From: Patescibacteria group bacterium
Lineage (GTDB): Bacteria; Patescibacteriota; Microgenomatia; UBA1400; PJMF01
Length of the DNA stretch: 41,628 bases
Direction of reading: 5' to 3'
NCBI GenBank assembly: GCA_018816485.1
Contig: JAHIVL010000073.1
Coordinates: forward strand, 1 to 41,628
Notes under the pieces: model-generated
The model's input: the letters and a program-made list of their open reading frames with translations, nothing else
The model's database searches: none
Told to the model about the DNA's origin: nothing
Program-made: the position numbers and the translations under genes
Part shown: piece after piece, positions 12,096 through 28,021 of the stretch
Layout: every line of letters starts with the position of its first letter
Position numbering within the stretch: position 1 is the first letter of the stretch

Positions 12096-13085
12096 ATGAA
12101 TAAACAAAAAGAAAAGACCGTTATTTTAGTTGCTGGAGCAGGTGGCTTTATTGGCGGTCATTTGGTTAATTATTTATTTAGCAAAGGTTATAAAAAAATT
12201 AGAGCTGTAGATATTAAGCCACTTGAAGATTGGTATCAGCTCAATAAAAAGGCCGAGAACTTAAAACTAGATTTAAGTGATCTAAAAAATTGCCAAAATG
12301 TTACGCGTAAAGTAGATGAAGTTTACAATTTAGCAGCTGACATGGGAGGGATGGGATTTATTGAAGCTAATAAAGCTTTATGTATGTTAAATGTTTTAAT
12401 TAATACTCACTTATTAATGGCGGCCAGAGATAATTATGTGAAGCGGTTTTTTTATTCATCTTCTGCGTGTGTTTATGCACTTAACAAGCAACAACGATCA
12501 GATATAGATGAATTAAAGGAGTCCGATGCCTATCCTGCAATGCCGGAAGATGGTTATGGTTGGGAAAAACTTTTTTCAGAACGTATGTGTAGGCATTTTA
12601 TGGAAGATTTTGGTTTAGAAACCAGAGTTGCTCGTTTTCATAATGTTTATGGTCCTCATGGTGAATATAAAGGTGGTAGAGAGAAAGCTCCTGCGGCTAT
12701 TATTCGCAAAGTAATATCGGCTAAAAACGCGGAAAAAAATGGAATTGAAATTTGGGGAGATGGAAAACAATCTCGTACTTTTATGTATATTGATGATTGT
12801 GTAAAAGGCATCGACATGATTATGCATAGCGACATCAAAGATCCGATAAACCTAGGAAGAAGTGAGCTTGTGACGATAAACGAGTTAGTCTCTATCGTTG
12901 AATCAATTGCAAATATTAAATTGAAGCGCACTTATAGCTTAGATGCTCCTCAGGGTGTTCGTGGAAGAAGCAGTAACAACACCATGATAAGAAAATTATT
13001 GAATTGGGAACCTCAAATTTCTTTAAAAGAAGGTTTAAACAAAACTTATGAGTGGATAAAAAGAGAGTTAAGCAAAAATGGTTAA
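12096..13085 (+). CDS. gme: GDP-mannose 3,5-epimerase (SDR family, plant GME-type)
   Basis: 'VAGAGGFIGGH', 'NLAADMGGMGFI', 'RFFYSSSACVY', 'YGWEKL', 'YKGGREKAPAA', 'WGDGKQSRTFMYIDDCV' and 'PQGVRGRSSNN' are colinear with my recollection of Arabidopsis GME along the whole length. Confidence 0.85.
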   Translation: MNKQKEKTVILVAGAGGFIGGHLVNYLFSKGYKKIRAVDIKPLEDWYQLNKKAENLKLDLSDLKNCQNVTRKVDEVYNLAADMGGMGFIEANKALCMLNVLINTHLLMAARDNYVKRFFYSSSACVYALNKQQRSDIDELKESDAYPAMPEDGYGWEKLFSERMCRHFMEDFGLETRVARFHNVYGPHGEYKGGREKAPAAIIRKVISAKNAEKNGIEIWGDGKQSRTFMYIDDCVKGIDMIMHSDIKDPINLGRSELVTINELVSIVESIANIKLKRTYSLDAPQGVRGRSSNNTMIRKLLNWEPQISLKEGLNKTYEWIKRELSKNG

Positions 13086-14535
13086 AAGATACAAGTATTT
13101 TTTCTTCTTTTTTCTTTTTCTTGTTTTATTTTTTTTACCTCGTTATTTAGCTCATTCACAGTATGATGCTTTGGAAGACGAAATTTTAGCAATTGATAAT
13201 AACATGATCTATTCTGCGTCAGAACAATTATTGGCTCCAGATTTTACCCATCCTCCCTTGTGGTATTTACTTATGGAATATCCAACTAAGTTATTGGCAT
13301 TAGAGCATGGTATTGGATACTATCGTTCAATTCAAGTTCTAATTTTATTTTTTGGACTAGTATTTTCAACTGGGTATTTTTGGAGAAAAATTCCTCACAA
13401 ATTTATATTAATTTTTTTGTTGCTATTTTTAACGAATGTTGAACTAATTCATTTAACTTCTCAGCATCGCATGTACTCCTTAGTATTAAGTTTTGGAGTT
13501 TTTTATGCTCTGTATTGGTTTTATTTAATAAAATATAAAAAGGATAAAAAATGGCAAGATTTTTTTACTGTTGGAATAATTGCTTCTTTAGGTTTTTTCA
13601 CTAATTACAGTATGATTTGGTTAATACCAATTTTTCCCATAGCGTATTTAATCTCTAGTGAGAGTGAAATTCTAAAACTTCGGATAAAAAATTTATTTAT
13701 TTTTACAATTACTTTTTTTGTTTCCATTAGTTGGTTTATTCCAACCTTTATCAAAAACTCTTTAATAAGCATTAATGCCAACCAATGGACTTTTGATTTT
13801 AATATCTATAATGTTTTTCAGTTATTTGTAAATTATTTTGGAATAATTCCTGTGCAGAAAGATCTTGGTAAAATTAGTATTTATGCAGTAGTTTTTATTG
13901 TTATCTTAGTTCTGATTGTATTAGGTCAATTATTTTTAAACAAAGAAAACTCTATAAAAAGAATTTTTTTTACTTCAGCAATTTCATTTATATTTTTTCT
14001 TTTAACAGTATTTATTACAGGAAATAGTTTATTGTATCCAAGAACAGCGATTTGTTTAGTATTGGCTTTTTATGTATTAATTACATGTGCTTTTGGGAGT
14101 TTTAAGTATTCAAGAGTCTTAGTTTTTTTAATAGCAATGCTGCAATTAAGCCAGTTCTTACTTTACTTTAATCAGGATGATTCTTTTTCAAATGGATACT
14201 TTTTTATGGATTATCGTATTCACCCAATTCATTATTTTGTGGATTATAATTTTCCGCAAAAGAGTTGTTTAGTTGTTATTCCTGTTTGGAATTATAGAGC
14301 TACTAAATATTTTTTAGAAGATGTTGTACAAGTCAAATCGGCAAGTATATTTGAAGTTGAAGATTCAATTAAGTTTTCAAAAACAAAAGATTGTGCATCT
14401 TTTTATTTTTTAGAACAATTTTCTATTGGCGAGAGTCGTTTGAAGCAACAATATAAAAAGTTTCTACCTTTTGATATTGAAAGAGTTTTGTTAGATGAAC
14501 ATGAAAATCAAAAATTATATTTAATGAGTGACTAG
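13078..14535 (+). CDS. GT-C-like polytopic membrane glycosyltransferase (PMT_2/ArnT-like)
   Basis: Twelve or more hydrophobic segments, an acidic motif in the first predicted external loop ('YDALEDEILAID') and a soluble C-terminal domain. 8-nt overlap (ATGGTTAA) with the GME stop. Confidence 0.45.
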   Translation: MVKRYKYFFFFFLFLVLFFLPRYLAHSQYDALEDEILAIDNNMIYSASEQLLAPDFTHPPLWYLLMEYPTKLLALEHGIGYYRSIQVLILFFGLVFSTGYFWRKIPHKFILIFLLLFLTNVELIHLTSQHRMYSLVLSFGVFYALYWFYLIKYKKDKKWQDFFTVGIIASLGFFTNYSMIWLIPIFPIAYLISSESEILKLRIKNLFIFTITFFVSISWFIPTFIKNSLISINANQWTFDFNIYNVFQLFVNYFGIIPVQKDLGKISIYAVVFIVILVLIVLGQLFLNKENSIKRIFFTSAISFIFFLLTVFITGNSLLYPRTAICLVLAFYVLITCAFGSFKYSRVLVFLIAMLQLSQFLLYFNQDDSFSNGYFFMDYRIHPIHYFVDYNFPQKSCLVVIPVWNYRATKYFLEDVVQVKSASIFEVEDSIKFSKTKDCASFYFLEQFSIGESRLKQQYKKFLPFDIERVLLDEHENQKLYLMSD

Positions 14536-16054
14536 CGCAAAAGTATTAACAATGAAAACAATAAAATTAAAGGAAATTTTCGCCGTATTATTTTTATTGC
14601 TTCCTGTGTTTTTAATAAGTTTTTTCTTTATGAATTCTAAATTTATTCTATTAGATGATCATGAGATATACAGGCTTTATTTTAAGGAGATAAATATTTT
14701 TACCGCCATTCTAGATGATTGGAAAAATCTCTATAGATTTAGGCCATTTTATTGGTTAGTAAGGCAAGTTGAATCTATTTTTTTCGGAATAAACCCCTTT
14801 TTTTGGTACAGCACAAGCTTGGTCTTTTTTTCTACTACCATTATATCTTTATATTTATTTTTTAAAAATATTGGTTACAAATCTTTTTTAGCAGTTATTT
14901 TTACTTGGGCTAGTGTTCTGGGCTATCAATCTATTGCTAGTTGGATGGCACTAGGAATTCAAGAAGGTTTAGGGTTGTGTCTTTTTTCTTGTAGCATATA
15001 CCAGCTTTCTTTATTTGGTTTGGATAGAATAATGAAAAACTTTTGTTTATCTGTGATATTCTTTTTTTTATCATTTCTGGTCAAGGAATCATTTTTTTTC
15101 TTAATTCCTTTTGTGGTCATAATCATTTTATGGCAAGAAAAATACTTCACAAGATCATTTTTTATAAAGAGCTTAGCTTTTAGTTCGGGCTCAATCTTCA
15201 TGATTCCAATTATTATGATTCAATCATGGCGAAGTTATAAATGGAGAATGATTAGTAATAATTTTAATCAGTTTGACTTTTTAAAAACTGATAATATGTT
15301 AAATTTTTTAGCTTTAATAAAAGAAAATTATCATTTGGTGTTAACATTCACTTTTTTTATTATCAGTGGTGTGTTTCTAGTTGTTGCTAACAGAAGAAAT
15401 AGTAAAAAAATAATTTTAATTTTTACTTTTTTACTGTGTTCATTGGGAATTAGCGCGCAGTTTTTAATTTACTCATTTACTGAGTATGTCGCTCCTCATT
15501 ATATTCAACCTATATCAATGATTATTGTTTTAAGTTTGTCATTTATTTTAAAGTACTATTCTTATAAAGCAAAATTTGTATATGGCTTACTAATATCTTT
15601 AGTATTGCCAATTACCTTTTTTAATTCAATTAGGTATGCAAATGGTCATAACTTTCAATCTCGAGCTCTTTATGAGATAGAGCAACAAGTTATTCAATCT
15701 AATAAAACAGACTTAATTTTGGTGGGTCATAGATCAAGAGATCACGAAAAGTTATTTTCTTTTTATAAAAGAATTTCTTATCAGAGTCCCAATAAAACTA
15801 TTTATTTTTATCATTATGACAATCTGAACAAAAATAAAAATGACAATAGATTTGATGTTGTTGAGGATACGACAATGCTAAATGTTAATTCAAACCAATT
15901 AAATAATTACCCAATGATAGTGAATATTTCATCAAATGGTTTTAATGATGAATATAATTTTATGACAACAAAATTGTTAACCAAACCAATTCTTAAGAAT
16001 ATTAATTATGATAGCACTTGGTATGTAGAAGCTCCATCTTTAGTTTTGAAATAA
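14528..16054 (+). CDS. Second GT-C-like polytopic membrane protein
   Basis: Many TM segments, an acidic first-loop motif 'FILLDDHEIYRLYF' and a soluble C-terminal domain. Start is GTG at 14528 or, more likely, ATG at 14552. Confidence 0.4.
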   Translation: MTSAKVLTMKTIKLKEIFAVLFLLLPVFLISFFFMNSKFILLDDHEIYRLYFKEINIFTAILDDWKNLYRFRPFYWLVRQVESIFFGINPFFWYSTSLVFFSTTIISLYLFFKNIGYKSFLAVIFTWASVLGYQSIASWMALGIQEGLGLCLFSCSIYQLSLFGLDRIMKNFCLSVIFFFLSFLVKESFFFLIPFVVIIILWQEKYFTRSFFIKSLAFSSGSIFMIPIIMIQSWRSYKWRMISNNFNQFDFLKTDNMLNFLALIKENYHLVLTFTFFIISGVFLVVANRRNSKKIILIFTFLLCSLGISAQFLIYSFTEYVAPHYIQPISMIIVLSLSFILKYYSYKAKFVYGLLISLVLPITFFNSIRYANGHNFQSRALYEIEQQVIQSNKTDLILVGHRSRDHEKLFSFYKRISYQSPNKTIYFYHYDNLNKNKNDNRFDVVEDTTMLNVNSNQLNNYPMIVNISSNGFNDEYNFMTTKLLTKPILKNINYDSTWYVEAPSLVLK

Positions 16055-18312: not shown

Positions 18313-20009
18313 TTTTTAACAACATAATTATCTATCACCAAGTAATCTATATCAGTACTCAAAAAACACCTGATTGCATCATTTGGAGTGCAAACGATTG
18401 GCTCACCCCTGACATTAAAAGAAGTGTTGATAATTATTGGAATCCCAGTTTTATCTTTATAGGATTTTACCAAGTCATAGTATTTTGGGTTATCTTTTCT
18501 GATCAGAGTTTCGAGTCTACCACTATTATCAACGTGGGCCACTGCAGGGACTTGTTTAAGGCCGATCTTTTTAAAAGGATATACCATTAGCATCCATCTT
18601 GCAGAAGGAGAGATATAGTCATCAGTTTCAAAATAATTCTTTGTATCTTCTTCAAGAATCACTGGCGCAAAGGGTCTAAACATTTCTCTCTTTTTAACTT
18701 TTTCATTAATGATATCTCTCATTTTTGTTGTAGTTGCCGAAGCTAAAATGCTTCTATTTCCAAGAGCTCGTGGTCCCCATTCCATTCTTCCTTGAAACCA
18801 ACCGATTACTTTTTTAGATTTAATTAATTTAGATACTTTATCAACCAATTTTTTATCACTTTCAATTCGTACGTATTTTAATTTATATTTTTTTAATTCT
18901 TTTTCAATTTGATACCATTTATATTCTGGTCCCAAATATGGATGAAAATCCTTCTTGTTCACTAATTTGCTTGTATGCTGAGTGTAGGAATACATAGCGG
19001 CACCCATAGCGGCACCAGCATCACTAGGATCAGGGGGAATAAATAACCTTTCAAACTGTGTATTAGATAGAATTTTTCCATTTAAAACAGAATTAAGAGC
19101 AACTCCACCCGCAAAGCATAGATTTTTTGTTTTGTAGGTTTTATATGCTGTATTTAAGAGGTTAACAACTACTTCTTCCAGCTTTTTCTGCAATGCTGCA
19201 GCAATATTTTCATGATATTTTTTTACTGGTCCCTCCTTTTTTCTAGGAGGATGGCCAAATAATTCACTCATTTTTTCTGAAGGCATATGATCAGCCCAAT
19301 CAAAATCAAAATATTTCATGTTTAGTTTAAAACTACCATCAGGAAATACCTCAATAATTTTGTCAAAATGTTTTTTAAATGGTTTGGGATCACCATAAGC
19401 CGCTAGGCCCATAACCTTGTATTCGCTGTCATTGGCACTAAATCCCAGATAAGTGGTTAAAGTGCTGTAAAGCAAACCAAGTGAGTGAGGAAAGTAAATT
19501 TCTTTGTCAATTTGAATTTTTTCATTAGATCCGTATCCAATGGTAGTAGTGGACCACTCACCAACTCCGTCAACTGTAACAATCGCTGATTTTTTAAATG
19601 GTGCAAGATAAAAAGCACTAGCCGCATGCGAAAGGTGGTGATCAATAAAATTGACTTCGCCAAAATAATTCACCTTTTCTTCAAGTGTTTTTTTAATTTG
19701 TAATCGAGATCCAAACCATGGCCCAATAGTGTTGACAAACTGTTTGTAACTTTTTGGGAAATTTTCTAGATGTTGAGAAATAATTCTCTCAAACTTAATC
19801 AAGGGTTTTTCATAAAAAGAAACTAAGTCAACCTCGTTTGCAGAAATATTTAAACTATCAAGGCAAAACTCAATAGCTTTTAGAGGAAAACTATTATCAT
19901 GTTTAATGCGGGTAAATCTTTCTTCAGCAGCTCCTGCAACAATTTTCCCATCTTTAATGATGCAAGCAGCACTATCGTGGTAATAGCAAGATATTCCTAG
20001 TACAATCAT
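18309..20009 (-). CDS. Carbamoyltransferase (NodU/CmcH family)
   Basis: 'GISCYYHDSAACIIKDGKIVAGAAEERFTRIKHDNSFP', 'HHLSHAASAFY', 'GGVALNSVLNGKI', 'MEWGPRALGNRSILA', 'RPFAPVILEE' and 'IIINTSFNVRGEPIV'. Confidence 0.9.
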   Translation of the reverse strand: MIVLGISCYYHDSAACIIKDGKIVAGAAEERFTRIKHDNSFPLKAIEFCLDSLNISANEVDLVSFYEKPLIKFERIISQHLENFPKSYKQFVNTIGPWFGSRLQIKKTLEEKVNYFGEVNFIDHHLSHAASAFYLAPFKKSAIVTVDGVGEWSTTTIGYGSNEKIQIDKEIYFPHSLGLLYSTLTTYLGFSANDSEYKVMGLAAYGDPKPFKKHFDKIIEVFPDGSFKLNMKYFDFDWADHMPSEKMSELFGHPPRKKEGPVKKYHENIAAALQKKLEEVVVNLLNTAYKTYKTKNLCFAGGVALNSVLNGKILSNTQFERLFIPPDPSDAGAAMGAAMYSYTQHTSKLVNKKDFHPYLGPEYKWYQIEKELKKYKLKYVRIESDKKLVDKVSKLIKSKKVIGWFQGRMEWGPRALGNRSILASATTTKMRDIINEKVKKREMFRPFAPVILEEDTKNYFETDDYISPSARWMLMVYPFKKIGLKQVPAVAHVDNSGRLETLIRKDNPKYYDLVKSYKDKTGIPIIINTSFNVRGEPIVCTPNDAIRCFLSTDIDYLVIDNYVVKK

Positions 20010-20533: not shown

Positions 20534-21793
20534 ATGACTTTATCGCCTAAAAAAAGTATTTTTTTATTTCTTTTTGCGTCTTTTCAAGTTTTAATCTTTT
20601 TTTTATTCTACACCTCATACCAATTCATAATAATTTCATTGTTTTTAGTTTTTTTATTTTTTTATTTTTGGTTTTTCAAATTAAAAATTACATTTGATTT
20701 GAGAGTGGGAATGTTGTGGTTGGGATTAATACTTTTTTTATGTATATCTTCAATTTTTAGTCATAGCTTGCCACTAAGTTTAGATAATATCGTTTTTTAC
20801 GCATCTTCATTTTGTATCTTTATATTTTTTAAAAGCTTGGGACTTAGTAAAATATTTTCAAAATCTCAGATAGCAGCTACTTTTTTATTAGTGGGTTTTG
20901 TTCTTTCAATGTTTTTTATACTATTCTTTAGTTTTCCAGAAACATCTGAATTTTTGCCTCCAGTTAATTTTTTTACAACGCATTATGGGCACAATCATTT
21001 TGCAGCTCTGCTTTTATTTTTAATTCCTTTGAGTTGGTGGTTTATCAGTTCTAGTGAATACAAATTTTTTGCTTATAGAAAGTCGATATTAGTTCTTTTT
21101 TACACTTTAATTATTTTTTCATTTGGTAGATTTGCAACTTTGTTAACAATAATTCAACTTTTTTTCATACCTGGAATAATCAACAAAAAATTCTTTAAGA
21201 AAATTTATCTTTATCTGGTGGGTATTATCTTGGCAAGTTCATTAGTGATTGGAGCGATGGTTTCATTAAACTCCGTTTCAAATTGTTTAGTAAATGAGTT
21301 CAAAATTCAGCTATGCAAACCAATCACAAACGAAGCTAGACCAGAGTATTTTAAACAGGCCGTAAGAAGTTTAAAAGCTTATCCTTTATTTGGATATGGT
21401 CCTGGAAGTTTTTCTTTAATATCCAAGAGATTTAACACAACATCGCAAAGTTTTTCGATATATGCTCATAACAACTTTCTTCAGATTTTTTCAGAATCTG
21501 GAGTTATTGTTGGAATTATCTATGTGCTGTTAATTGGATTGTTGTATAAAAATATGTTTTCTGTTTTGAAAAAAAGCAAAGATGGTAATAGATTAAATAG
21601 TTTTTTATATCTAGGATTAGTAAGTTTATTAATAAATTCATTTATTGATTTCGATTGGGAACTATTTCCTATTTTTCAGATGGTAATTATTTTTATAGCT
21701 GTTGTTCTTTGGGATTATCAGGGAGCATACTTCGATAATAAAAGAATATTTTTAGTATTAAAAAAATCTATTAATTACTTTTTATTTTTCTAA
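20534..21793 (+). CDS. O-antigen ligase/polymerase-like (Wzy_C domain) polytopic membrane protein
   Basis: 'SFGRFATLLTIIQLFF', 'GYGPGSFSLISKRF' and 'YAHNNFLQIFSESGVIVGIIYVLLIGLL' match the Wzy_C core, with 10 or more TM segments. Confidence 0.75.
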   Translation: MTLSPKKSIFLFLFASFQVLIFFLFYTSYQFIIISLFLVFLFFYFWFFKLKITFDLRVGMLWLGLILFLCISSIFSHSLPLSLDNIVFYASSFCIFIFFKSLGLSKIFSKSQIAATFLLVGFVLSMFFILFFSFPETSEFLPPVNFFTTHYGHNHFAALLLFLIPLSWWFISSSEYKFFAYRKSILVLFYTLIIFSFGRFATLLTIIQLFFIPGIINKKFFKKIYLYLVGIILASSLVIGAMVSLNSVSNCLVNEFKIQLCKPITNEARPEYFKQAVRSLKAYPLFGYGPGSFSLISKRFNTTSQSFSIYAHNNFLQIFSESGVIVGIIYVLLIGLLYKNMFSVLKKSKDGNRLNSFLYLGLVSLLINSFIDFDWELFPIFQMVIIFIAVVLWDYQGAYFDNKRIFLVLKKSINYFLFF

Positions 21794-22326
21794 TGGTGAT
21801 GCTGATTGGTCTTGGATTTATTAATTTTGTTACGAAAATTCTAATTAATGGCGGTAATGAGGAAATAACATTTAGAATTTTTCCTTACTTCTACTCACAA
21901 TCTGAATTCTTTTTGACTGAAGCAGATATTTCAGAAGAACAAACTGATTTATTATATAAAATTTATGAGAATCACGATAAATTTATTTTGAATAATATTG
22001 AAAAAGAACCAAATATAGATAAAAAAATTGAACTATATAAAAAACTCATGGTGGTAAGGTTGTACGATGTTACAAACACAAATTATTATCAGCTCTTGCT
22101 AGACCAGGGCATGTATGTCAGCTTGGGAGAGGCTTCATACAAAGGTCTTTCTATGCTGATAGAAAATGAAAATAATGGAATGGGGCAGTCATACATAGTA
22201 AAAGAAAACATAATTAATTATCTTTTATTGTCTGCTCATTGGCACGAAGAAAATGGTGAGTATGATTTGTATAAAAAATACTATGATTTTATTGAGTCAA
22301 TTTGGAATAAAGATTGGAGTAATTAA
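21793..22326 (+). CDS. Hypothetical protein with an N-terminal TM, coupled to the Wzy_C gene
   Basis: TAATG overlap with the upstream gene. The helical, Tyr/Glu-rich sequence has no family I recognise. Confidence 0.4.
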   Translation: MVMLIGLGFINFVTKILINGGNEEITFRIFPYFYSQSEFFLTEADISEEQTDLLYKIYENHDKFILNNIEKEPNIDKKIELYKKLMVVRLYDVTNTNYYQLLLDQGMYVSLGEASYKGLSMLIENENNGMGQSYIVKENIINYLLLSAHWHEENGEYDLYKKYYDFIESIWNKDWSN

Positions 22327-22979
22327 TAGTCACCTTTTAATAGCTGCTTGATGATTATTTTATAAAAAGTATTGAAAATTAGAGAAAGGTCATTTTTTAA
22401 CGACCAATTGAGTTTTGATTCATTTCTAACAATCAAGTCATTGATTTCGTTTTTTTCTAGTTTTCTCCATTCATTTAATGATTGGTAGCGATTTGGAGAT
22501 AGTGCCCATTTTGATATTATTCCTGGCCTAACTTTATATCTAAAATCCCAAGAAGAAGGAAGGCTATTAGCTTCGTTAACTGGTAGGGGGCGAGGTCCAA
22601 CTAAACTCATTTCTCCTTTTAGAATATTAATTATTTGTGGAATTTCATCTATACCAAAATTTGAAAGAGTTTTGCCAATAATAGTAAATCTTGGGTCGTT
22701 TTTAATTTTAAACATTGGGTAAGGAGAAATATTTAGTTTTTTGAGTTTGTCTTGTTGTGAGCTAGCTCCACGCTTCATAGTTCTAAGCTTGTAAATAGTA
22801 AATATTTTCTTGTCTTTTCCTATTCTTTTTTGTTTAAAAATAACTGGACATCCAATTAACAATACAAAAAAGGGATAAATAAATACAAAAATTGGTATGA
22901 AAAATATTAGACCAATGATTGATAAAATTATGTCAAAAATTCTTTTATTATCAATCATAGTTTGATCCCGGGTGGACAA
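22323..22979 (-). CDS. Small monotopic phosphoglycosyl transferase (bacterial sugar transferase, WbaP C-terminal/PglC-like), the pathway-initiating enzyme
   Basis: 'RIFDIILSIIGLIFFIPIF', 'VIFKQKRIGKDKKIFTIYKLRTM' and 'DEIPQIINILKGEMSLVGPRPLP'. Confidence 0.9.
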   Translation of the reverse strand: MSTRDQTMIDNKRIFDIILSIIGLIFFIPIFVFIYPFFVLLIGCPVIFKQKRIGKDKKIFTIYKLRTMKRGASSQQDKLKKLNISPYPMFKIKNDPRFTIIGKTLSNFGIDEIPQIINILKGEMSLVGPRPLPVNEANSLPSSWDFRYKVRPGIISKWALSPNRYQSLNEWRKLEKNEINDLIVRNESKLNWSLKNDLSLIFNTFYKIIIKQLLKGDY

Positions 22980-24294
22980 TTAAATCTAAATCTATATTTT
23001 TTGTAGTTTTAGTCTGTTTATATATCAATATTAACATTGTCGAAAAGATATAGTATACCAAATATTTATGAAATCTTGGTTTTAAGTAGTTTTTTATCGA
23101 GCGAAGCGTTCGAACTTTCTTAATTCTTTTTTCTTCTGATATCTCATTAAGAATACTTCTGACTGGTTCAAATATATGCAAATGTTGTTCCGAGTTAATT
23201 TCTTTAATAATAATACCTTTTTTTTGAAAAAATATTATTTGAGCTTCGATTTCTTTCTTGATTTCACTTTTTGATATTTTCTTTATGATAAGTCTAAGCA
23301 AGAAATTTGGGAGATTATAAAATATTCCGTTGTTATCTACTAAGGTGGGGATACTCTGAGTTTCTAAAATGGGTTTTCCACGTAAAAGATTTATATGAAC
23401 AATTATTTGATAATCATCAGTTAATTTTTTAAGAATATTTAAATCTTTTTTCGATACCATATTGGCAAAGACTGAAATATGAGTAATTGATTTTGCCTGA
23501 AGTTGATCAATGATTGCGTTATTAATTATTTCTGACATTCCATAGTCATCTGCAACAATTTTATCTGATGATTTTGATTTCAATAATCTAAAATCAATTA
23601 ATCTAATTAGATCAATACATGTTTTTACAATTCTTTGTAAAGAAGAATATCTGCTTGGTCTAATTTCTCGAATAGTAATTGGTAGTTCAATTACTTCATT
23701 TTTAAGTTTTAACAAAAGCTCAGTGTCAAATAGTTCGTGCTTTGTTGTAATTTCTCGTAATGCCTTTTTGAGTTTTTTAGTATTTCTAAATGCTTTTATT
23801 CCGTGCGTGTCTGTTCCTTCATATTTAAGTATGTATTTTAAAACAAATCCGAGTAGTTTTGTTCTGAGTCTTTCAAAATAAGGCCTTGAATCACTACTTT
23901 GTTTGTGTAGTTTTGAACCAGAAACAATGTTATGAGTTTGCAATTTTTTAAATGATTTTTTGATGAAATCGATGTCATAAAAATCAACATTTAGAACAAA
24001 AAGGTATCTGCAATTCGAACTTAGTAGTCCGTGTTTTACAGCTTGTCCAAATGATGGAAATGAGATTCGTCTTTTTTTAATAAATTTATATTTATTTTCT
24101 AATCGACATATTTCATTCCACGATTTGTCTGCGCTTCCATTTTCAATTAAAATAATTTCATCTAATGGAAGATTGTGTTGCTTAATTTCTGCAATAAAAG
24201 ATTCTATTTGAGTTGCTAGATCTTTTTCTTCATTGTAAACGGGGAAAATATAACTAGTTTTTAAAATTTCTTTCATACCACTTAACTGTTTCAA
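22951..24294 (-). CDS. Fusion protein: N-terminal GT2 glycosyltransferase plus C-terminal YdjC/ChbG/HpnK-type carbohydrate deacetylase
   Basis: GT2 part: 'YIFPVYNEEKDLATQIESF..IILIENGSADKSW'. YdjC part: 'IVADDYGMSEIINNAIIDQ', 'NSEQHLHIFEPV' and 'LIVHPGS', with a hydrophobic segment 'YLVYYIFSTMLILIY' between the last two blocks. Confidence 0.7.
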   Translation of the reverse strand: MKQLSGMKEILKTSYIFPVYNEEKDLATQIESFIAEIKQHNLPLDEIILIENGSADKSWNEICRLENKYKFIKKRRISFPSFGQAVKHGLLSSNCRYLFVLNVDFYDIDFIKKSFKKLQTHNIVSGSKLHKQSSDSRPYFERLRTKLLGFVLKYILKYEGTDTHGIKAFRNTKKLKKALREITTKHELFDTELLLKLKNEVIELPITIREIRPSRYSSLQRIVKTCIDLIRLIDFRLLKSKSSDKIVADDYGMSEIINNAIIDQLQAKSITHISVFANMVSKKDLNILKKLTDDYQIIVHINLLRGKPILETQSIPTLVDNNGIFYNLPNFLLRLIIKKISKSEIKKEIEAQIIFFQKKGIIIKEINSEQHLHIFEPVRSILNEISEEKRIKKVRTLRSIKNYLKPRFHKYLVYYIFSTMLILIYKQTKTTKNIDLDLIVHPGSNYD

Positions 24295-25183
24295 TCAAAC
24301 CCTGTTTAAGAGTAACTTTTGGTTTCCATTTTAACTCTTTTAAAGCTTTCTTGTTTGAAATATAACTTCTGTTTTGCTCAATACTTTTCATTTTCTTATA
24401 TTTAATTTTAATTTCCGAATTAAACATTCCTTTTATTTTTTTGCTTAAATCTTTAATTGAGGTTTCAGTTTGTGAAGAAATATTGAAACAGTTATTTATA
24501 TCATATTTTAGTGCCAAAACATTAGCATAAACAAGATCTGAAACAAATATAAAATCTCGTGTTTGATCTCCATTATTATTTATTGTTAATCGTTTTCCAT
24601 TGATAATATTTTCAATAAATATCGAAATTACTGATTTATTTTTGTTATTTTGTCTTGGGCCGTAGACATTAGAATAGCGTAATATTACATATTTTATTCC
24701 ACATATTTTTGAGTAGGCTTTAATATAATATTCTCCTGCAAGTTTTGATACACCATATGGTGTAATGGGAAAAGGTTGAGTTTTCTCAGTAAATGGAAGG
24801 GTTTTATCTTCTGAATAGATTGCTCCAGCAGAAGATGCAAAAATAATTTTTTTCACTTTATATTTTTTTGCGGCTTCAAGTAGGTTAATAACAGATGTGA
24901 TGTTATTGGCATCATTTAATGGTTTTTCTAGTGAGTTTGTTACTGAAATATTAGCAGCATGATGATTGATAACATCTGGTTTTTCATCCTCAATAAGTTT
25001 ATTTATTTCTTTTGATTTAGTTAAATTTATTTGGAAATAAGAAGCGGAAGGATTCTTGTAGGGGAGTAAATTAGCTTGTCTTTTGTCAGCTATGATAACT
25101 TCATGTCCTAGCTTGATATATGCATCAACTATGTGTGAGCCAATAAAACCACATCCTCCAGTGACGAGTATTTTCATAAACAA
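24254..25183 (-). CDS. NAD-dependent sugar-nucleotide epimerase/dehydratase (GalE-like SDR)
   Basis: 'KILVTGGCGFIGSHIVDAY', 'SSAGAIY' and the YxxxK block 'YGVSKLAGEYY'. It starts 9 nt after the stop of the surface-protein gene. Confidence 0.85.
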   Translation of the reverse strand: MFMKILVTGGCGFIGSHIVDAYIKLGHEVIIADKRQANLLPYKNPSASYFQINLTKSKEINKLIEDEKPDVINHHAANISVTNSLEKPLNDANNITSVINLLEAAKKYKVKKIIFASSAGAIYSEDKTLPFTEKTQPFPITPYGVSKLAGEYYIKAYSKICGIKYVILRYSNVYGPRQNNKNKSVISIFIENIINGKRLTINNNGDQTRDFIFVSDLVYANVLALKYDINNCFNISSQTETSIKDLSKKIKGMFNSEIKIKYKKMKSIEQNRSYISNKKALKELKWKPKVTLKQGLIETVKWYERNFKN

Positions 25184-25192
25184 TATGCAATT

Positions 25193-26761
25193 CTAACCCC
25201 CCAACTCACCTTTTTCCAGCTGAGTAGAAATCCAGAAACTCCATAGTCCTGAAATTATGAAGAATAAACCGCCAAATATTAACGCCATTGTTGTTCCTAC
25301 AGATCCTGAAACTGGTACGCCTTCGTCTGTGGCTGGTTGCGATGTTCTTGCTTCATCAGTAGCTTCTGCCGAGTTACTTGCTTCTGCTGAGTCAGTGGCG
25401 TCATCAATAGGGTAGGGATTTCCAGATCCATATGGAGCTGAATCTGCTTCATCATCAATATAATCTCCAGCATCAGCTAGTTGTTGGGATGTATCACTAA
25501 CGGTAAAATTAACAGTTTTTTCTACGATCTCTCCAGTATCTGGGTCTGTATATGAATAAGTTACGCTATGTTCGCCTGGTTCCAATGATTCCGAAAGTTC
25601 AGAAATATCTAAAACAAATTCCCCATTCTCATCAGCAATTATTTCTTGCTGAATTTGAGTGTCGGAATGAACCGAGATAGAAACCGCTATACCTGGAAGT
25701 GCTTTTCCAGTAATTATTGGTGTTGAGGTAGTGACTGTTTGATGATCTGTTAATTCAAGATCAAGTTTTGTAATAATAGCGCTCTCACTTGAACTTACAT
25801 CTTCATTTATCAAGTCATCAAGTAAAGCACTTCTATTAGATCTATCAGTTATTTTAGCTGAATCAGTAGCAATTTCTTTTTGAATAGTATCTATTGGCAT
25901 GATATCCATTTCTTTATCTATGACATCCTCAACAGTATTGATAGGAGCACTCACGAATTCTCTGATTGAATCTGTTTCTTTAGCTGAAATATTAGTATCG
26001 ATAGTTTTCTGTCCAAAGGTCATTCCAGTCACTGGTTGGGAATGTTCGACAGTTGTTGAAAAGAAAGTTTTTTGTGTGGAAAGAGGGCCTTGAACATTAA
26101 TAGTTATGTTATCTTGATCAGAAATCGATGCATATGCATTGCCATCAATAGTTCTCGCATTTGAAAGAGGAATAGCCCAGCTGCCAGACGCTTTTACTTG
26201 AGAAGACATAGTTCCAGCTCTATTAATATCGACATAAACGACAGATCCCTCAGCAGGAGCTCCGGTTTCGGTGGTGACACTTCCATAAATTGTTTTTGCA
26301 GCAGCAGGAGCTCCGTTTCTACTTGCGGTTTTTATTCTAAATGGTTGTCCATTATCGTCAAATGTATCTCCGGAGCCAGTTCCAATAAGGTAATAATACG
26401 TAGTAGCTTGTTCTAACCCTCTAATTGTGATGTGATGAATCTGAAACTCACCAACAGTACCGCTGATTTGATCTCTATCATTGCTTGCTTGAGATTTTAA
26501 ACTATTAGACTCAGCGCCATATTTTACAAATCCCGCAGTATTGTTGTCTGTTAAAAATGAAATAGTAAAACTAGTGTCATGAACATTCGACACTTTAACA
26601 TTTTTTGGAGTGGTTTCTACAGAAGCGCGTGGAGAGAAAACACCACCACCCTTTCCAATAAGCAAAGTTCCTGATATTAAAGCTATGACTAAAACAACAG
26701 TTCCCAGTATAGTGGGGATTCTTTTGTCAAGTATTTTCTTTGGTATCTTTAAATTATTCAT
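25193..26761 (-). CDS. Large surface protein: N-terminal signal anchor, FN3 (purple-acid-phosphatase N-like) domain, beta-sandwich/Ig-like domains, acidic linker, C-terminal hydrophobic anchor
   Basis: 'PKNVKVSNVHDTSFTISFLTDNNTAGFVKYG...HHITIRGLEQATTYYY' is FN3-like. 'YGSVTTETGAPAEGSVVYV' is CarboxypepD_reg-like. 'ITGKALPGIAVSISVHSDT...ADENGEFVL' is Ig-like. The tail is 'DDATDSAEASNSAEATDEARTSQPATDEGVPVSGSVGTTMALIFGGLFFIISGLWSFWI'. Confidence 0.55.
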   Translation of the reverse strand: MNNLKIPKKILDKRIPTILGTVVLVIALISGTLLIGKGGGVFSPRASVETTPKNVKVSNVHDTSFTISFLTDNNTAGFVKYGAESNSLKSQASNDRDQISGTVGEFQIHHITIRGLEQATTYYYLIGTGSGDTFDDNGQPFRIKTASRNGAPAAAKTIYGSVTTETGAPAEGSVVYVDINRAGTMSSQVKASGSWAIPLSNARTIDGNAYASISDQDNITINVQGPLSTQKTFFSTTVEHSQPVTGMTFGQKTIDTNISAKETDSIREFVSAPINTVEDVIDKEMDIMPIDTIQKEIATDSAKITDRSNRSALLDDLINEDVSSSESAIITKLDLELTDHQTVTTSTPIITGKALPGIAVSISVHSDTQIQQEIIADENGEFVLDISELSESLEPGEHSVTYSYTDPDTGEIVEKTVNFTVSDTSQQLADAGDYIDDEADSAPYGSGNPYPIDDATDSAEASNSAEATDEARTSQPATDEGVPVSGSVGTTMALIFGGLFFIISGLWSFWISTQLEKGELGG

Positions 26762-26918
26762 ATCTATTTGGCAAAATAAAAAGTATGCCTAGTTTTTCCA
26801 CATAAAAACTGTTCGTTTTTTTTCACGACAACTCTTCTATCTACTTTAGATAAGTATAGTCAAGAAAGCAACGCGAACAAAGACCGAAAATAATGTAATG
26901 AATGAGTACAAAAGATAT

Positions 26919-27374
26919 CTAGTTGTTGATGGGAGGTGTTTCTTCCTGAGTAGATTCAGAAATATCACTACTTTTTGAACTTTCAATTTCAGTTTTTAGT
27001 AATGATTCAGAGTCCTTTTTTTTAACTGGTGCCATTACTTGTTTTGGATCTAAATCGTCGATTGTGACCTCCAAAGGAACAACTTTTTCAGTTTTTCCAT
27101 CTCTGGATGTTAATATTTTATAAATAATAAATGAAGATAGTTCCTGTTCTGAATAAGAGTGTTTTTCTTGGATTTTTAGCAATTCATCCCTGTCAAAACT
27201 CGGCGTCAATGGCATTGCTAATGCAGTTAATTCCTTGGAAATTTCATCATTAGTTTGTGAGCTTATCAAACTAATTACAATCCAAAATAAAACTGAAACG
27301 AATAGCAAGATTAAAATAGTAAGGAACTGTCTATTGGTTTTTAATTTCTGAAAATCTTTTTTAATTTGGTTCAT
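26919..27374 (-). CDS. Hypothetical single-TM protein downstream of the pilO-like gene
   Basis: TM 'FLTILILLFVSVLFWIVISLI' and a Ser/Glu-rich tail. It starts 13 nt after the pilO-like stop. No family recognised. Confidence 0.4.
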   Translation of the reverse strand: MNQIKKDFQKLKTNRQFLTILILLFVSVLFWIVISLISSQTNDEISKELTALAMPLTPSFDRDELLKIQEKHSYSEQELSSFIIYKILTSRDGKTEKVVPLEVTIDDLDPKQVMAPVKKKDSESLLKTEIESSKSSDISESTQEETPPINN

Positions 27375-27387
27375 ATTGTTTTACTTT

Positions 27388-28020: not shown

Positions 28021-28021
28021 T

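What the first reader, a model, noticed from the sequence alone, without database searches (positions are those of the whole stretch)
22951..24294. GT2 glycosyltransferase fused to a YdjC/ChbG/HpnK-type deacetylase
Seen: one 447-aa ORF with a GT2 N-terminal half (YIFPVYNEE..IENGSADKSW) and a complete YdjC-type C-terminal half (IVADDYGMS, EQHLHIF, VHPGS). It lies directly upstream of the initiating phosphoglycosyl transferase. Known: GT2 enzymes of the ArnC/GtrB/HpnI type load a sugar onto a lipid carrier. ArnD and HpnK then deformylate or deacetylate the lipid-linked sugar, and a GT-C enzyme such as ArnT transfers it outside the membrane. Inference: the fusion could make a polyprenyl-phosphate-linked free amino sugar such as GlcN in one polypeptide. 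That product would feed the two GT-C-like proteins at 13078-16054. Such a route would add cationic sugars to a surface polymer or protein.
Basis: partly seen in the sequence, partly recalled or inferred. Interest (0 to 1): 0.65.

Follow-up and report, generated by a model that had tools for sequence, protein, structure and literature searches.

The report
Fused lipid-sugar synthase and deacetylase
One gene of an ultra-small (CPR) bacterium joins an enzyme that probably puts an N-acetyl sugar onto a membrane lipid carrier to the enzyme that strips the acetyl group, probably supplying an amino-sugar donor for enzymes that decorate the cell surface; this is a fused, untested variant of a pathway known in Francisella and Bordetella.

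Summary
A continuous minus-strand ORF (22951-24294; likely ATG start at 24276, 441 aa) carries a GT2 domain and a YdjC domain, both above Pfam cut-offs. It overlaps the downstream phosphoglycosyl transferase gene by 8 nt.

It is not an assembly artefact. About 43 clusters at 50% identity have the same full-length architecture; those that carry names are from CPR/Patescibacteria. Thirteen other genomes carry the two halves as adjacent genes, most of them overlapping.

The GT2 half is most like polyprenyl-phosphate glycosyltransferases (ArnC, GtrB, Dol-P-Man synthase). The YdjC half keeps all five ChbG catalytic residues but lacks about the last 38 residues.

The 485-aa protein at 13078-14535 models as a GT-C fold, best match ArnT. 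Relatives of it, or PMT_2 proteins, lie within 10 kb of 16-19 of 21 fused loci. Other members of the same GT2 clade are fused directly to PMT_2 GT-C domains.

Best explanation (0.62): a bifunctional polyprenyl-P-HexNAc synthase/deacetylase that makes a polyprenyl-P-HexN donor for GT-C enzymes. This parallels FlmF2/NaxD/FlmK and LgmA/LgmC/LgmB.

Caveats: no transmembrane anchor, Asn in place of the first DxD Asp, no flippase found, and sugar and acceptor unknown. I rate it a new variant of a known kind, of moderate interest.

The parts
22951..24276 (-). GT2-YdjC fusion gene (441 aa from ATG 24276; the ORF extends to a TTG at 24294)
   Evidence: ORF; start and stop context; both Pfam domains above cut-off; 43 two-domain clusters of 436-480 aa; AF2 model pLDDT 90.1, pTM 0.90.
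23581..24276 (-). GT2 (GT-A) domain plus two juxtamembrane-like helices, residues 1-232
   Evidence: Pfam GT2. The best PDB sequence match is P. furiosus Dol-P-Man synthase over residues 5-232. The A1 profile matches ArnC over 5-232 at E 7e-14, including REIRPSRYS against ArnC REFGESKYS. The top 19 Foldseek hits are ArnC, GtrB and DPMS. Invariant residues: N46 G47 S48 D50 D98 D129 R131 H158 D184 E186.
22954..23565 (-). Short YdjC-type deacetylase domain, residues 238-441
   Evidence: Pfam YdjC 99.6 bits. NCBIfam HpnK 68.8 and ChbG 63.8 bits, both below their equivalog cut-offs. The profile matches ChbG 7vi8 at E 4e-16. D243, D244, H294, H365/H367 and H435 are invariant and align with ChbG D10, D11, H61, H125 and H206. 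ChbG residues ~212-249, including R223, are absent.
22323..22958 (-). Small initiating phosphoglycosyl transferase (Bac_transf), translationally coupled to the fusion
   Evidence: Pfam 161 bits; ATG inside the fusion's last codons; the same adjacency occurs in L007 and L008.
24254..25183 (-). GalE-like SDR epimerase/dehydratase, immediately upstream in the same operon
   Evidence: Pfam Epimerase 198 bits and NCBIfam galE 177 bits, the latter below cut-off. An epimerase-family ORF (matching both window epimerases) sits directly upstream of the fusion in L007 and L009; in L008 only the weaker hit to the other window epimerase (Epi329) was tabulated.
13078..14535 (+). 485-aa GT-C-fold glycosyltransferase of a family with no significant Pfam match ('famA'), the proposed user of the lipid-linked donor
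   Evidence: AF2 pLDDT 88.8. The top 13 Foldseek hits are all GT-C enzymes, with ArnT 5ezm/5f15 best at TM 0.51-0.54. Asp-Glu pair in the first loop, where PMT-type GT-C enzymes carry theirs (my own knowledge): E33 nearly invariant, D34 and E35 invariant. Homologs lie 4 bp (L003) and 25 bp (L016) from the fusion and share contigs with fusions in at least 7 clusters.
14528..16054 (+). 508-aa multi-pass membrane protein, a probable remote GT-C paralogue of famA
   Evidence: No Pfam hit. A profile-profile comparison with famA gives 89.5% probability, E 2e-6, over 177 N-terminal columns; these include its DDHE stretch, which falls beside, not in register with, famA's EDE. Homologs share contigs with fusions and famA. 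The fold was not modelled.
12096..13085 (+). Second SDR epimerase/dehydratase, overlapping the famA GT-C gene
   Evidence: Pfam Epimerase 157 bits. The same pairing with GT-C genes occurs in L005 (83% identity); a 72%-identical epimerase domain lies 6.4 kb from the GT-C gene in L003.
20534..22326 (+). Wzy_C (O-antigen ligase/polymerase-like) gene, here as two ORFs, convergent with the operon
   Evidence: Pfam Wzy_C 50.3 bits. Single 771- and 735-aa homologs lie 134 bp (L005) and about 0.6 kb (L007) from the fusion; Wzy_C proteins are adjacent in L003, L015 and L017.

Best explanation
The gene encodes a cytoplasmic, membrane-peripheral bifunctional enzyme that makes a lipid-linked amino-sugar donor.

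Step 1 (inferred from fold, profile and gene context): the N-terminal GT-A domain is a polyprenyl-phosphate glycosyltransferase of the DPMS/GtrB/ArnC kind. It transfers an N-acetylhexosamine from a nucleotide sugar onto undecaprenyl phosphate. The sugar is probably GlcNAc or GalNAc from the UDP form, given the GalE-like epimerase co-transcribed upstream.

Step 2 (inferred from conserved catalytic residues and the NaxD/LgmC precedent): the C-terminal YdjC domain is a metal-dependent deacetylase. It removes the acetyl group while the sugar is still on the carrier, giving polyprenyl-P-HexN.

Step 3 (no gene assigned): the product is flipped across the membrane.

Step 4 (GT-C fold shown by modelling; the link rests on gene neighbourhood and domain fusions): GT-C enzymes such as 13078-14535, and probably 14528-16054, transfer the free-amine sugar onto an extracytoplasmic acceptor. 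The acceptor is probably the glycopolymer or glycoprotein built by the surrounding PGT/WecG/GT4/Wzy_C cluster.

Fusing the two enzymes would hand the acetylated intermediate directly from one active site to the other.
For: Architecture is real and conserved:
- Both domains pass Pfam cut-offs.
- 43 two-domain clusters and about 43 full-length representatives at 50% identity.
- 13 genomes encode the same two halves as separate genes, most joined by short stop/start overlaps (ATGA in six), so this is a functional pair that fused.

The GT2 half resembles Pren-P glycosyltransferases:
- The best PDB sequence hit is Dol-P-Man synthase over the whole domain.
- The profile aligns with ArnC over 5-232, including the motif before the second juxtamembrane helix (REIRPSRYS against REFGESKYS).
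- The top 19 structural matches are ArnC, GtrB and DPMS.
- The model has helices at 133-150 and 212-231, where those enzymes have JM1 and JM2.

The YdjC half looks active:
- Residues aligning with ChbG D10, D11, H61, H125 and H206 are invariant in 34 sequences down to 29% identity.

Precedent:
- NaxD is a YdjC-superfamily enzyme that deacetylates Und-P-GalNAc before transfer to lipid A.
- LgmA, LgmB and LgmC add GlcN to Bordetella lipid A.

Link to GT-C enzymes:
- 13078-14535 models as GT-C with ArnT as best match.
- famA-like GT-C genes lie within 10 kb in 13 of 21 non-redundant fused loci, as close as 4 and 25 bp.
- Fused loci without famA have PMT_2 proteins instead: three pass the cut-off (L010 45.2, L014 31.7, L009 30.7 bits) and three fall below it.
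- Proteins of the same GT2 clade are fused to PMT_2 GT-C domains (P0139 48.6 bits, L076 31.2 bits) or to methyltransferases.
- GT2-only relatives in Acidobacteriota sit beside famA-like GT-C genes together with a different tailoring-type enzyme.
Against: - There is no biochemical evidence.
- The protein has no transmembrane helix (maximum 19-residue hydropathy about 1.0), whereas ArnC and GtrB are anchored by transmembrane helices, as is PfDPMS (my own knowledge).
- The first Asp of the DxD motif is described as universally conserved and is the favoured catalytic base in ArnC and GtrB. Here it is Asn96, as in 26 of 34 fusions.
- The usual DDGS nucleotide motif reads ENGS.
- The Foldseek margin over other GT-A enzymes is modest: E 1e-10 against 1e-8.
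- The YdjC domain lacks the ChbG C-terminus, including the acetate-binding R223.
- No GtrA-, SMR- or dedicated MATE-type flippase was found in the window.
- In this window the GT-C genes lie 8.4 kb away on the other strand, while the gene translationally coupled to the fusion is a PGT that makes an Und-PP-linked sugar.
Confidence: 0.62

Rival explanations
1. The fusion acts on the Und-PP-linked intermediate made by the translationally coupled phosphoglycosyl transferase. The GT2 domain adds the second sugar (a HexNAc) to Und-PP-sugar. The YdjC domain deacetylates that residue, so the repeat unit itself contains a free amino sugar. The GT-C proteins would then be unrelated neighbours.
For: The fusion and the PGT overlap by 8 nt in the window and are adjacent in L007 and L008. 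A PGT lies within 10 kb in 8 of 21 fused loci. The protein has no membrane anchor, as is typical of peripheral GT-A enzymes acting on Und-PP-glycans (my own knowledge). Asn replaces the proposed phosphate-activating Asp. Invariant D184 and E186 lie in the region where GtrB's candidate base D157 lies; residue equivalence was not established.
Against: This model does not explain the repeated tight linkage to GT-C genes in distant lineages, nor the GT2-GT-C fusions in the same clade. Whole-domain sequence and fold matches favour ArnC, DPMS and GtrB, including the pre-JM2 motif. I know of no YdjC enzyme that acts on an Und-PP-glycan. Most fused loci (13 of 21) have no PGT within 10 kb.
Confidence: 0.2
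2. The enzyme makes a free-amine glycolipid as an end product, as HpnI/HpnK do. It would glycosylate a membrane lipid alcohol or diacylglycerol-type acceptor and deacetylate it, giving a cationic GlcN-lipid in the membrane rather than a donor for GT-C enzymes.
For: The best NCBIfam match of the YdjC half is HpnK (68.8 bits). A sister subclade of fusions is flanked by a B12-radical-SAM protein whose best match is HpnJ (159-175 bits), recalling the HpnI/HpnK/HpnJ triad.
Against: The HpnK and HpnJ scores are far below their equivalog cut-offs of 232.6 and 577.6. The GT2 half gives no HpnI hit. CPR bacteria are not known to make hopanoids (my own knowledge). In the sister subclade the HpnJ-like gene is itself adjacent to a famA-like GT-C gene (L024, L020, L023), which again points to a donor role.
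Confidence: 0.08
3. The YdjC half has a ChbG-like catabolic or soluble-sugar role, or is an inactive remnant, and the fusion has no pathway meaning.
For: The YdjC domain is truncated and lacks the equivalent of R223. ChbG scores about as well as HpnK.
Against: All five catalytic residues are invariant across 34 diverged sequences. The fused or adjacent arrangement is conserved in 34 non-redundant loci. There are no chitobiose PTS or hydrolase genes nearby; the surrounding genes are for envelope glycan assembly.
Confidence: 0.04

Closest known systems
FlmF2 / NaxD / FlmK (Francisella, with NaxD also in Acinetobacter) and LgmA / LgmC / LgmB (Bordetella): amino-sugar modification of lipid A
   Same: The same three chemical steps are proposed: a GT2 makes Und-P-HexNAc, a YdjC-superfamily deacetylase converts it to Und-P-HexN, and an ArnT-like GT-C transfers the cationic sugar outside the membrane (the roles of FlmF2, FlmK and the individual Lgm proteins are from my own knowledge). 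From memory, naxD and flmF2 are neighbouring genes, like the split CPR loci.
   Different: Here the synthase and the deacetylase are one polypeptide with no transmembrane helix. The organism is a CPR bacterium without LPS genes in view, so the acceptor cannot be assumed to be lipid A. The GT-C belongs to a family with no significant Pfam match. No NaxD or LgmC sequence was available, so orthology is untested.
ArnC / ArnD / ArnT (L-Ara4N modification of lipid A)
   Same: A Pren-P GT2 is followed by de-N-acylation of the lipid-linked sugar and then GT-C transfer. ArnC is the top structural match and a full-domain profile match, and ArnT is the top match of the 485-aa protein.
   Different: ArnD is a NodB/CE4-type deformylase, not a YdjC enzyme (my own knowledge). 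ArnC has two transmembrane helices and a DxD with both Asp residues. The sugar differs.
HpnI / HpnK / HpnJ (bacteriohopanepolyol glucosamine and cyclitol ether synthesis)
   Same: A GT2 plus a YdjC deacetylase act in sequence on a lipid-linked GlcNAc. HpnK is the best NCBIfam hit of the YdjC half, and a sister subclade adds an HpnJ-like radical SAM enzyme.
   Different: All scores are far below the equivalog cut-offs. The GT2 half does not match HpnI. The hopanoid acceptor is not expected in CPR bacteria. The systems here are linked to GT-C enzymes.
Three-component extracytoplasmic glycosylation systems (GtrA/GtrB/Gtr*; Citrobacter youngae ORF15/ORF14/ORF12)
   Same: The general logic is a lipid-linked donor synthase, a flippase and a GT-C enzyme. 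C. youngae ORF15 is also a fusion of a donor synthase with an enzyme that tailors the lipid-linked sugar, in that case a phosphatase.
   Different: The tailoring step here is deacetylation, no flippase was identified, and the synthase lacks transmembrane helices.
ChbG (chitooligosaccharide monodeacetylase, the YdjC family prototype)
   Same: The same fold family and the same catalytic set: D10 as base, D11/H61/H125 binding the metal, and H206 as acid.
   Different: ChbG is a soluble dimer acting on chitobiose. The domain here lacks ChbG residues ~212-249 (R223, D224) and about 25 internal residues, and it is tethered to a GT2.

Membership tests
Glycosyltransferase family 2 (GT-A fold) | Match to the Pfam Glycos_transf_2 model above its gathering score | tested here: met
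   43.5 bits against 23.3, residues 15-175.
Glycosyltransferase family 2 (GT-A fold) | Metal-binding Asp of the DxD motif and the nucleotide-binding motif after beta-2 | tested here: met
   D98 (aligning with ArnC D102 and GtrB D96) and D50 are invariant. The nucleotide motif reads E45-N46-G47-S48 instead of DDGS.
Polyprenyl-phosphate glycosyltransferases (DPMS / GtrB / ArnC type) | GT-A domain closest in sequence and structure to known Pren-P GTs over its whole length | tested here: met
   PfDPMS is the best PDB sequence hit over 5-232. ArnC matches at E 7e-14 over 5-232. The top 19 Foldseek hits are ArnC, GtrB and DPMS, although the margin over other GT-A enzymes is only about 100-fold in E-value.
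Polyprenyl-phosphate glycosyltransferases (DPMS / GtrB / ArnC type) | Two juxtamembrane (interface) helices between which the lipid enters | tested here: inconclusive
   The model has helices at 133-150 and 212-231 in the expected order, basic and partly amphipathic. The ArnC alignment runs through the second one.
Polyprenyl-phosphate glycosyltransferases (DPMS / GtrB / ArnC type) | C-terminal transmembrane helices anchoring the enzyme | tested here: not met
   There is no segment with transmembrane-level hydropathy. The YdjC domain follows the second helix, where ArnC and GtrB have TM1 and TM2.
Polyprenyl-phosphate glycosyltransferases (DPMS / GtrB / ArnC type) | First Asp of DxD (ArnC D100, GtrB D94, DPMS D89), described as universally conserved and proposed as the catalytic base | tested here: not met
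   It is Asn96 in the window protein and in 26 of 34 fusions, and Asp in 8. D101 (aligning with GtrB D99) and invariant D184 remain as candidate bases.
Polyprenyl-phosphate glycosyltransferases (DPMS / GtrB / ArnC type) | Conserved basic residues that bind the acceptor phosphate (GtrB R122/R125/R197; ArnC R128/R131/R137/R205) | tested here: inconclusive
   K122 is nearly invariant, R131 is invariant, and R206, R209 and R215 are nearly invariant, all in the corresponding regions. Residue-by-residue equivalence could not be fixed without a structural superposition.
Polyprenyl-phosphate glycosyltransferases (DPMS / GtrB / ArnC type) | Transfer of a sugar to polyprenyl phosphate | not testable with these tools
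   This needs an enzyme assay.
YdjC / ChbG / HpnK / NaxD deacetylase family | Match to the Pfam YdjC model above its gathering score | tested here: met
   99.6 bits against 29.7.
YdjC / ChbG / HpnK / NaxD deacetylase family | Catalytic set: base Asp, metal ligands Asp/His/His, and acid His (ChbG D10, D11, H61, H125, H206) | tested here: met
   D243, D244, H294, H365/H367 and H435 are invariant in 34 sequences and align with the E. coli ChbG residues.
YdjC / ChbG / HpnK / NaxD deacetylase family | Complete domain, including the C-terminal helices and the acetate/substrate-binding Arg (ChbG R223) | tested here: not met
   The protein ends 6 residues after H435. ChbG residues ~212-249 have no counterpart. 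The invariant R389 might substitute, but this is untested.
HpnK or ChbG as specific equivalogs | NCBIfam equivalog score | tested here: not met
   HpnK 68.8 against 232.6; ChbG 63.8 against 227.
NaxD / LgmC (Und-P-HexNAc deacetylases) | Closer relationship to NaxD or LgmC than to ChbG or HpnK | not tested
Three-component extracytoplasmic glycosylation system | GT-C enzyme genetically linked to the donor synthase | tested here: met
   The 485-aa protein has a GT-C fold. 16 fused loci have a famA-like or above-cut-off PMT_2 neighbour, and 3 more have a sub-threshold PMT_2 hit, out of 21. GT2-PMT_2 fusions exist in the same clade.
Three-component extracytoplasmic glycosylation system | Dedicated flippase (GtrA, SMR or MATE type) | tested here: not met
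   No small multi-pass ORF lies near the genes. The only MATE-like protein in the window is a MurJ homolog at 28835-30535.

The most novel reading that the evidence does not exclude
This GT2 clade is a modular, transmembrane-less family of polyprenyl-phosphate sugar synthases. In different lineages it is joined, by fusion or by gene overlap, to the enzyme that tailors the sugar on the carrier, and it feeds a GT-C family that Pfam does not significantly cover. The tailoring partners seen are a YdjC deacetylase (as here), a methyltransferase, a Glf-like flavoprotein, and YdjC plus an HpnJ-like B12-radical-SAM enzyme. If so, Microgenomates-type CPR bacteria decorate their envelope or pili with free-amine sugars. 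In the sister subclade the transferred group could be a radical-SAM-rearranged amino sugar or aminocyclitol, a kind of GT-C donor not yet described.
Probability: 0.25. Interest if true: 0.75.

Novelty: new variant of a known kind. Interest (0 to 1): 0.5.

Why it matters
CPR/Patescibacteria are mostly uncultured, live attached to other cells, and their surface chemistry is almost unknown.

A conserved route that puts positively charged amino sugars on the surface would bear on how these cells attach to hosts and on how they resist cationic peptides and phages.

For enzymology, a naturally fused, transmembrane-free synthase-deacetylase could be easier to express and crystallise than ArnC or GtrB together with NaxD. 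It would also let substrate hand-over between two enzymes acting on a lipid-linked sugar be tested directly.

The work also assigns a likely function and donor type to a GT-C family that has no significant Pfam match.

The chemistry itself has clear precedents (NaxD, LgmC, Arn), so the advance would be one of breadth and architecture rather than of principle.

Tried and rejected
- Assembly or frameshift artefact: rejected. Two-domain proteins of similar length occur in 43 clusters and about 43 exhaustive-search representatives. The split versions are clean two-gene arrangements, most with short stop/start overlaps, not broken copies.
- HpnI/HpnK orthology: rejected. Scores are far below the cut-offs and there is no HpnI hit.
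- Sequence-only identification of the 485-aa family: the profile search against PDB sequences found nothing, and Pfam gave only a 16.8-bit PMT_2 hint. The fold search was needed.
- The 508-aa protein: a single-sequence hhalign gave 3.6% probability, and Pfam and PDB profile searches gave nothing significant. Only a profile-profile comparison gave 89.5%.
- Flippase search among small or multi-pass ORFs in the window: nothing convincing.
- Promoter and terminator scan of 21500-27500: promoter-like sites no more frequent than in shuffled sequence; terminator-like sites above it (7 against 2.6), but none separates the genes of the operon; no operon boundary was defined.
- Geometry of the two active sites: the model coordinates are not exposed to the scripting environment.
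- The primary NaxD paper (PMC3841722) is not held, so NaxD's role is cited from a review.
- Literature search for YdjC together with CPR/Patescibacteria: none of the 10 papers listed holds YdjC (24 matched at least 3 of the 4 terms).


Full report
THE FEATURE

The window has about 30% G+C. Its proteins are 57-89% identical to those of a Candidatus Woesebacteria genome (GCA_017999345.1, locus L005). The window therefore comes from a Microgenomates-type CPR/Patescibacteria bacterium.

On the minus strand, 22951..24294 is one uninterrupted ORF. The database gene call (P0001, 441 aa) and the aligned N-termini of homologs point to the ATG at 24276 as the start.

Pfam finds Glycos_transf_2 (43.5 bits, cut-off 23.3) and YdjC (99.6 bits, cut-off 29.7).

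The gene is the third of four co-directional genes:
- a 522-aa surface protein (25193-26761);
- a GalE-like epimerase (24254-25183), whose end overlaps the fusion's start;
- the fusion itself;
- a small Bac_transf phosphoglycosyl transferase, whose ATG (22958) lies inside the fusion's last codons.

IS THE FUSION REAL?

Yes. A word-indexed search found 43 clusters, at 32-100% identity, that carry both Pfam domains at lengths of 436-480 aa. Where they are named, they come from Woesebacteria, Pacebacteria, Chisholmbacteria or 'Patescibacteria group'.

An exhaustive HMMER search of 1.84 billion representatives found about 43 full-length two-domain proteins among 875 hits at E <= 1e-30. The family is small but well established.

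A scan of one genome per species returned 80 loci. After I removed duplicates and added the window, these were 21 fused loci, 13 'split' loci and 47 loci with the GT2 alone. In the split loci a ~235-aa GT2 gene is followed by a separate YdjC gene, ~206-245 aa where complete, usually through a short stop/start overlap (ATGA in six). The two halves are therefore a conserved functional pair that has fused in some lineages.

THE GT2 HALF

The best PDB sequence match is Pyrococcus Dol-P-Man synthase, aligned over residues 5-232.

A profile of 34 fusions aligns with ArnC over 5-232 at E 7e-14. The alignment includes REIRPSRYS against ArnC REFGESKYS, just before the second juxtamembrane helix.

The AlphaFold model is confident (pLDDT 90.1, pTM 0.90). 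Its 19 best PDB matches are all ArnC, GtrB or Dol-P-Man synthase, ahead of other GT-A enzymes by about two orders of magnitude in E-value. The model places helices at 133-150 and 212-231, where those enzymes have the two juxtamembrane helices between which the polyprenyl phosphate enters.

There are three departures from the known enzymes:
- There is no transmembrane helix. The YdjC domain begins where ArnC and GtrB have TM1.
- The first Asp of the DxD motif is the favoured catalytic base in ArnC and GtrB. Here it is Asn96, as in 26 of 34 fusions. The metal-binding D98 is invariant, and D101 and D184 remain as candidate bases.
- The nucleotide motif reads ENGS rather than DDGS.

THE YdjC HALF

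Profile matches to ChbG (7vi8), 8jqe and EF3048 (2i5i) are at E ~1e-15 to 4e-16.

The ChbG structure paper assigns D10 as the base, D11/H61/H125 as zinc ligands, H206 as the acid and R223 as an acetate contact. In an alignment with E. coli ChbG, the corresponding D243, D244, H294, H365/H367 and H435 are invariant across the fusions.

The protein ends six residues after H435, however, so the last ~38 residues of ChbG, including R223, are missing. About 25 internal residues are also deleted in the window's subclade. The split-gene YdjC proteins of some Roizmanbacteria (L033, L034) are equally short, so this reduction is a property of the clade and not of the fusion event.

HpnK (68.8 bits) and ChbG (63.8 bits) both score far below their equivalog cut-offs.

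THE LINK TO GT-C ENZYMES

The 485-aa protein at 13078-14535 has no significant Pfam match and no PDB sequence match. Its model (pLDDT 88.8) has GT-C enzymes as its 13 best structural matches. ArnT is first (TM 0.51-0.54), followed by ALG12, STT3, ALG9, Pmt4, AftA, ALG3 and Pmt1/2. It has an Asp-Glu pair in its first loop, with E33 nearly invariant and D34 and E35 invariant.

The neighbouring 508-aa protein (14528-16054) aligns with that family at 89.5% hhalign probability over its N-terminal half, a stretch that includes its own DDHE sequence. It is probably a GT-C paralogue, but this is not shown.

Across genomes:
- Homologs of the 485-aa family lie 4 bp (L003) and 25 bp (L016) from the fusion, and within 10 kb in 13 of 21 fused loci.
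- Fused loci without such a homolog have multi-pass PMT_2 proteins near the fusion (from overlapping it to about 4 kb away). Three pass the cut-off (L010 45.2, L014 31.7, L009 30.7 bits). Three are sub-threshold (L001, L007, L013).
- Proteins of 700-800 aa from the same GT2 clade (about 230-250 bits against the fusion profile) have the GT2 domain fused to a multi-pass region that, in three of the eight tested, matches PMT_2 (P0139 48.6 bits, L076 31.2 bits).
- Others of the clade are fused to methyltransferases.
- GT2-only relatives outside the CPR (Acidobacteriota, Gemmatimonadota and others) are usually preceded by a Glf-like flavoprotein; in 11 of the 47 loci, mostly acidobacterial, a famA-like GT-C gene lies nearby.

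The recurring pattern is this GT2, plus an enzyme of a tailoring type, plus a GT-C. That is what is expected if the GT2 makes the lipid-linked donor that GT-C enzymes require (general scheme).

MOST LIKELY MECHANISM

1. Inferred: the GT2 domain transfers a HexNAc from a nucleotide sugar to undecaprenyl phosphate at the cytoplasmic face. The co-transcribed GalE-like epimerase hints at UDP-GlcNAc/UDP-GalNAc interconversion; an epimerase-family gene is likewise adjacent in L007 and L009, and L008 has a weaker hit of the same kind.
2. Inferred from the catalytic residues and from the NaxD/LgmC precedent: the tethered YdjC domain removes the acetyl group, giving polyprenyl-P-HexN.
3. Unassigned: a flippase moves the product across the membrane.
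4. The fold is shown by modelling and the link by gene context: GT-C enzymes transfer the free-amine sugar to an extracytoplasmic acceptor.

The surrounding genes encode a PGT, WecG/TagA, GT4 and GT2 enzymes, two Wzy_C proteins, UDP-galactopyranose mutase, a carbamoyltransferase, SGNH-like proteins and a methyltransferase. A cell-surface glycopolymer, or a glycoprotein made through a PglL-like Wzy_C enzyme, is therefore the likely acceptor. I put this model at about 0.62.

RIVAL EXPLANATIONS

The main rival (about 0.2) is that the enzyme extends and deacetylates the Und-PP-sugar made by the coupled PGT. That would fit the lack of a membrane anchor and the Asn96 substitution. It leaves the GT-C linkage and the GT2-GT-C fusions unexplained.

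An HpnI/HpnK-like end-product glycolipid (about 0.08) and a ChbG-like soluble-sugar role (about 0.04) are less likely.

COMPARISON WITH KNOWN SYSTEMS, AND NOVELTY

In how it works, the closest systems are FlmF2/NaxD/FlmK and LgmA/LgmC/LgmB, followed by ArnC/ArnD/ArnT. In domain families, it also recalls HpnI/HpnK. The fusion of a donor synthase with an enzyme that tailors the lipid-linked sugar has a precedent in Citrobacter ORF15.

What differs here is the single polypeptide, the absence of transmembrane helices, the reduced YdjC domain, the Asn at the first DxD position, the CPR host and the uncharacterised GT-C partners.

None of the 10 papers listed by a search for YdjC together with CPR/Patescibacteria terms holds YdjC. 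Public annotation calls these proteins 'ChbG/HpnK family deacetylase' or 'glycosyl transferase family 2'.

I classify the feature as a new variant of a known kind, with interest 0.5. It is solid and testable and broadens a known pathway, but a specialist would not find the chemistry surprising. The more unusual lead is the sister subclade with an HpnJ-like radical SAM enzyme placed between the fusion and the GT-C gene.

Noticed in passing
L024:141-4549; also L019, L020, L023, L027 (fused) and L037, L049 (split): A sister subclade of the GT2-YdjC module (30-37% identical to the window protein) carries a 459-505-aa B12-binding radical SAM protein. In the three tested (L019, L037, L024), the best NCBIfam match is HpnJ (159-175 bits, nearly full length, below the 577.6 cut-off). 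The gene order is fusion, then rSAM, then famA-like GT-C in L024, and rSAM then GT-C in L020 and L023. This suggests a lipid-linked amino sugar that is further rearranged before GT-C transfer. The window has no such gene.
   Followed up: partly
L075:6977-10783 and about 27 other GT2-only loci (e.g. L044, L053, L055, L057, L072): The nearest stand-alone relatives of the GT2 half occur in Acidobacteriota, Gemmatimonadota, Myxococcota and Planctomycetota. They are preceded, with overlap on the same strand, by a ~440-aa FAD/NAD_binding_8 flavoprotein remotely related to UDP-galactopyranose mutase. In 11 of the 47 loci a famA-like GT-C gene is also nearby. This is a different 'synthase + tailoring enzyme + GT-C' module.
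   Followed up: partly
L041:10007-12142, L076:9003-11147, L077:9944-12364; proteins P0139, P0161, P0163, P0170, P0177: Proteins of 700-800 aa from the same GT2 clade are fused to a multi-pass region that matches PMT_2 in three of the eight proteins tested (P0139 48.6 bits, L076 31.2 bits, L041 17.8 bits), a donor synthase joined to its GT-C user. Others (P0147, P0193, P0048, P0059) are fused to SAM methyltransferases.
   Followed up: partly
window 20534-21793 and 21793-22326 (+): The Wzy_C (O-antigen ligase/polymerase-like) gene is present as two abutting ORFs of 419 and 177 aa. The homologs in L005 and L007 are single proteins of 771 and 735 aa. This could be a real split, a frameshift or a sequencing error.
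   Followed up: no
window 25193-26761 (-): A 522-aa predicted surface protein lies directly upstream of the epimerase-fusion-PGT genes. It has an N-terminal hydrophobic segment, a purple-acid-phosphatase-N (FN3-like) domain, Ig-like domains, an acidic Ser/Thr/Asp-rich stretch and a C-terminal hydrophobic segment. The same placement is seen in L007; in L005 the homolog lies a few kb away beside the PGT. It is a candidate glycosylation target.
   Followed up: no
window 16080-17186 (+) and 17353-18312 (-); 18309-20009 (-): Two weakly SGNH/GDSL-like proteins and a NodU/CmcH-type carbamoyltransferase accompany the GT-C genes. They recur with the fusion in L003, L019 and L023, and in part in L037, which suggests O-acyl or O-carbamoyl decoration of the same glycan.
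   Followed up: no
window 13078-14535 (protein residues 395-485): The GT-C family has a C-terminal alpha/beta domain with two invariant cysteines (C397, C439). This is consistent with an extracytoplasmic disulfide-bonded domain.
   Followed up: no
L007, L009, L012, L016, L018, L030, L036 (record titles): Several contigs whose fusion-locus gene content resembles that of the CPR loci here are titled 'uncultured Pseudomonadales' or 'Gammaproteobacteria'. These MAG taxonomy labels are probably wrong.
   Followed up: no
window 26919-28633 (-) and 28835-30535 (-): A PilN-like gene with two neighbouring small genes and a MurJ homolog flank the glycan cluster, in the same order as in L005. Type IV pilus components next to a PGT/Wzy_C cluster could point to pilin glycosylation.
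   Followed up: no
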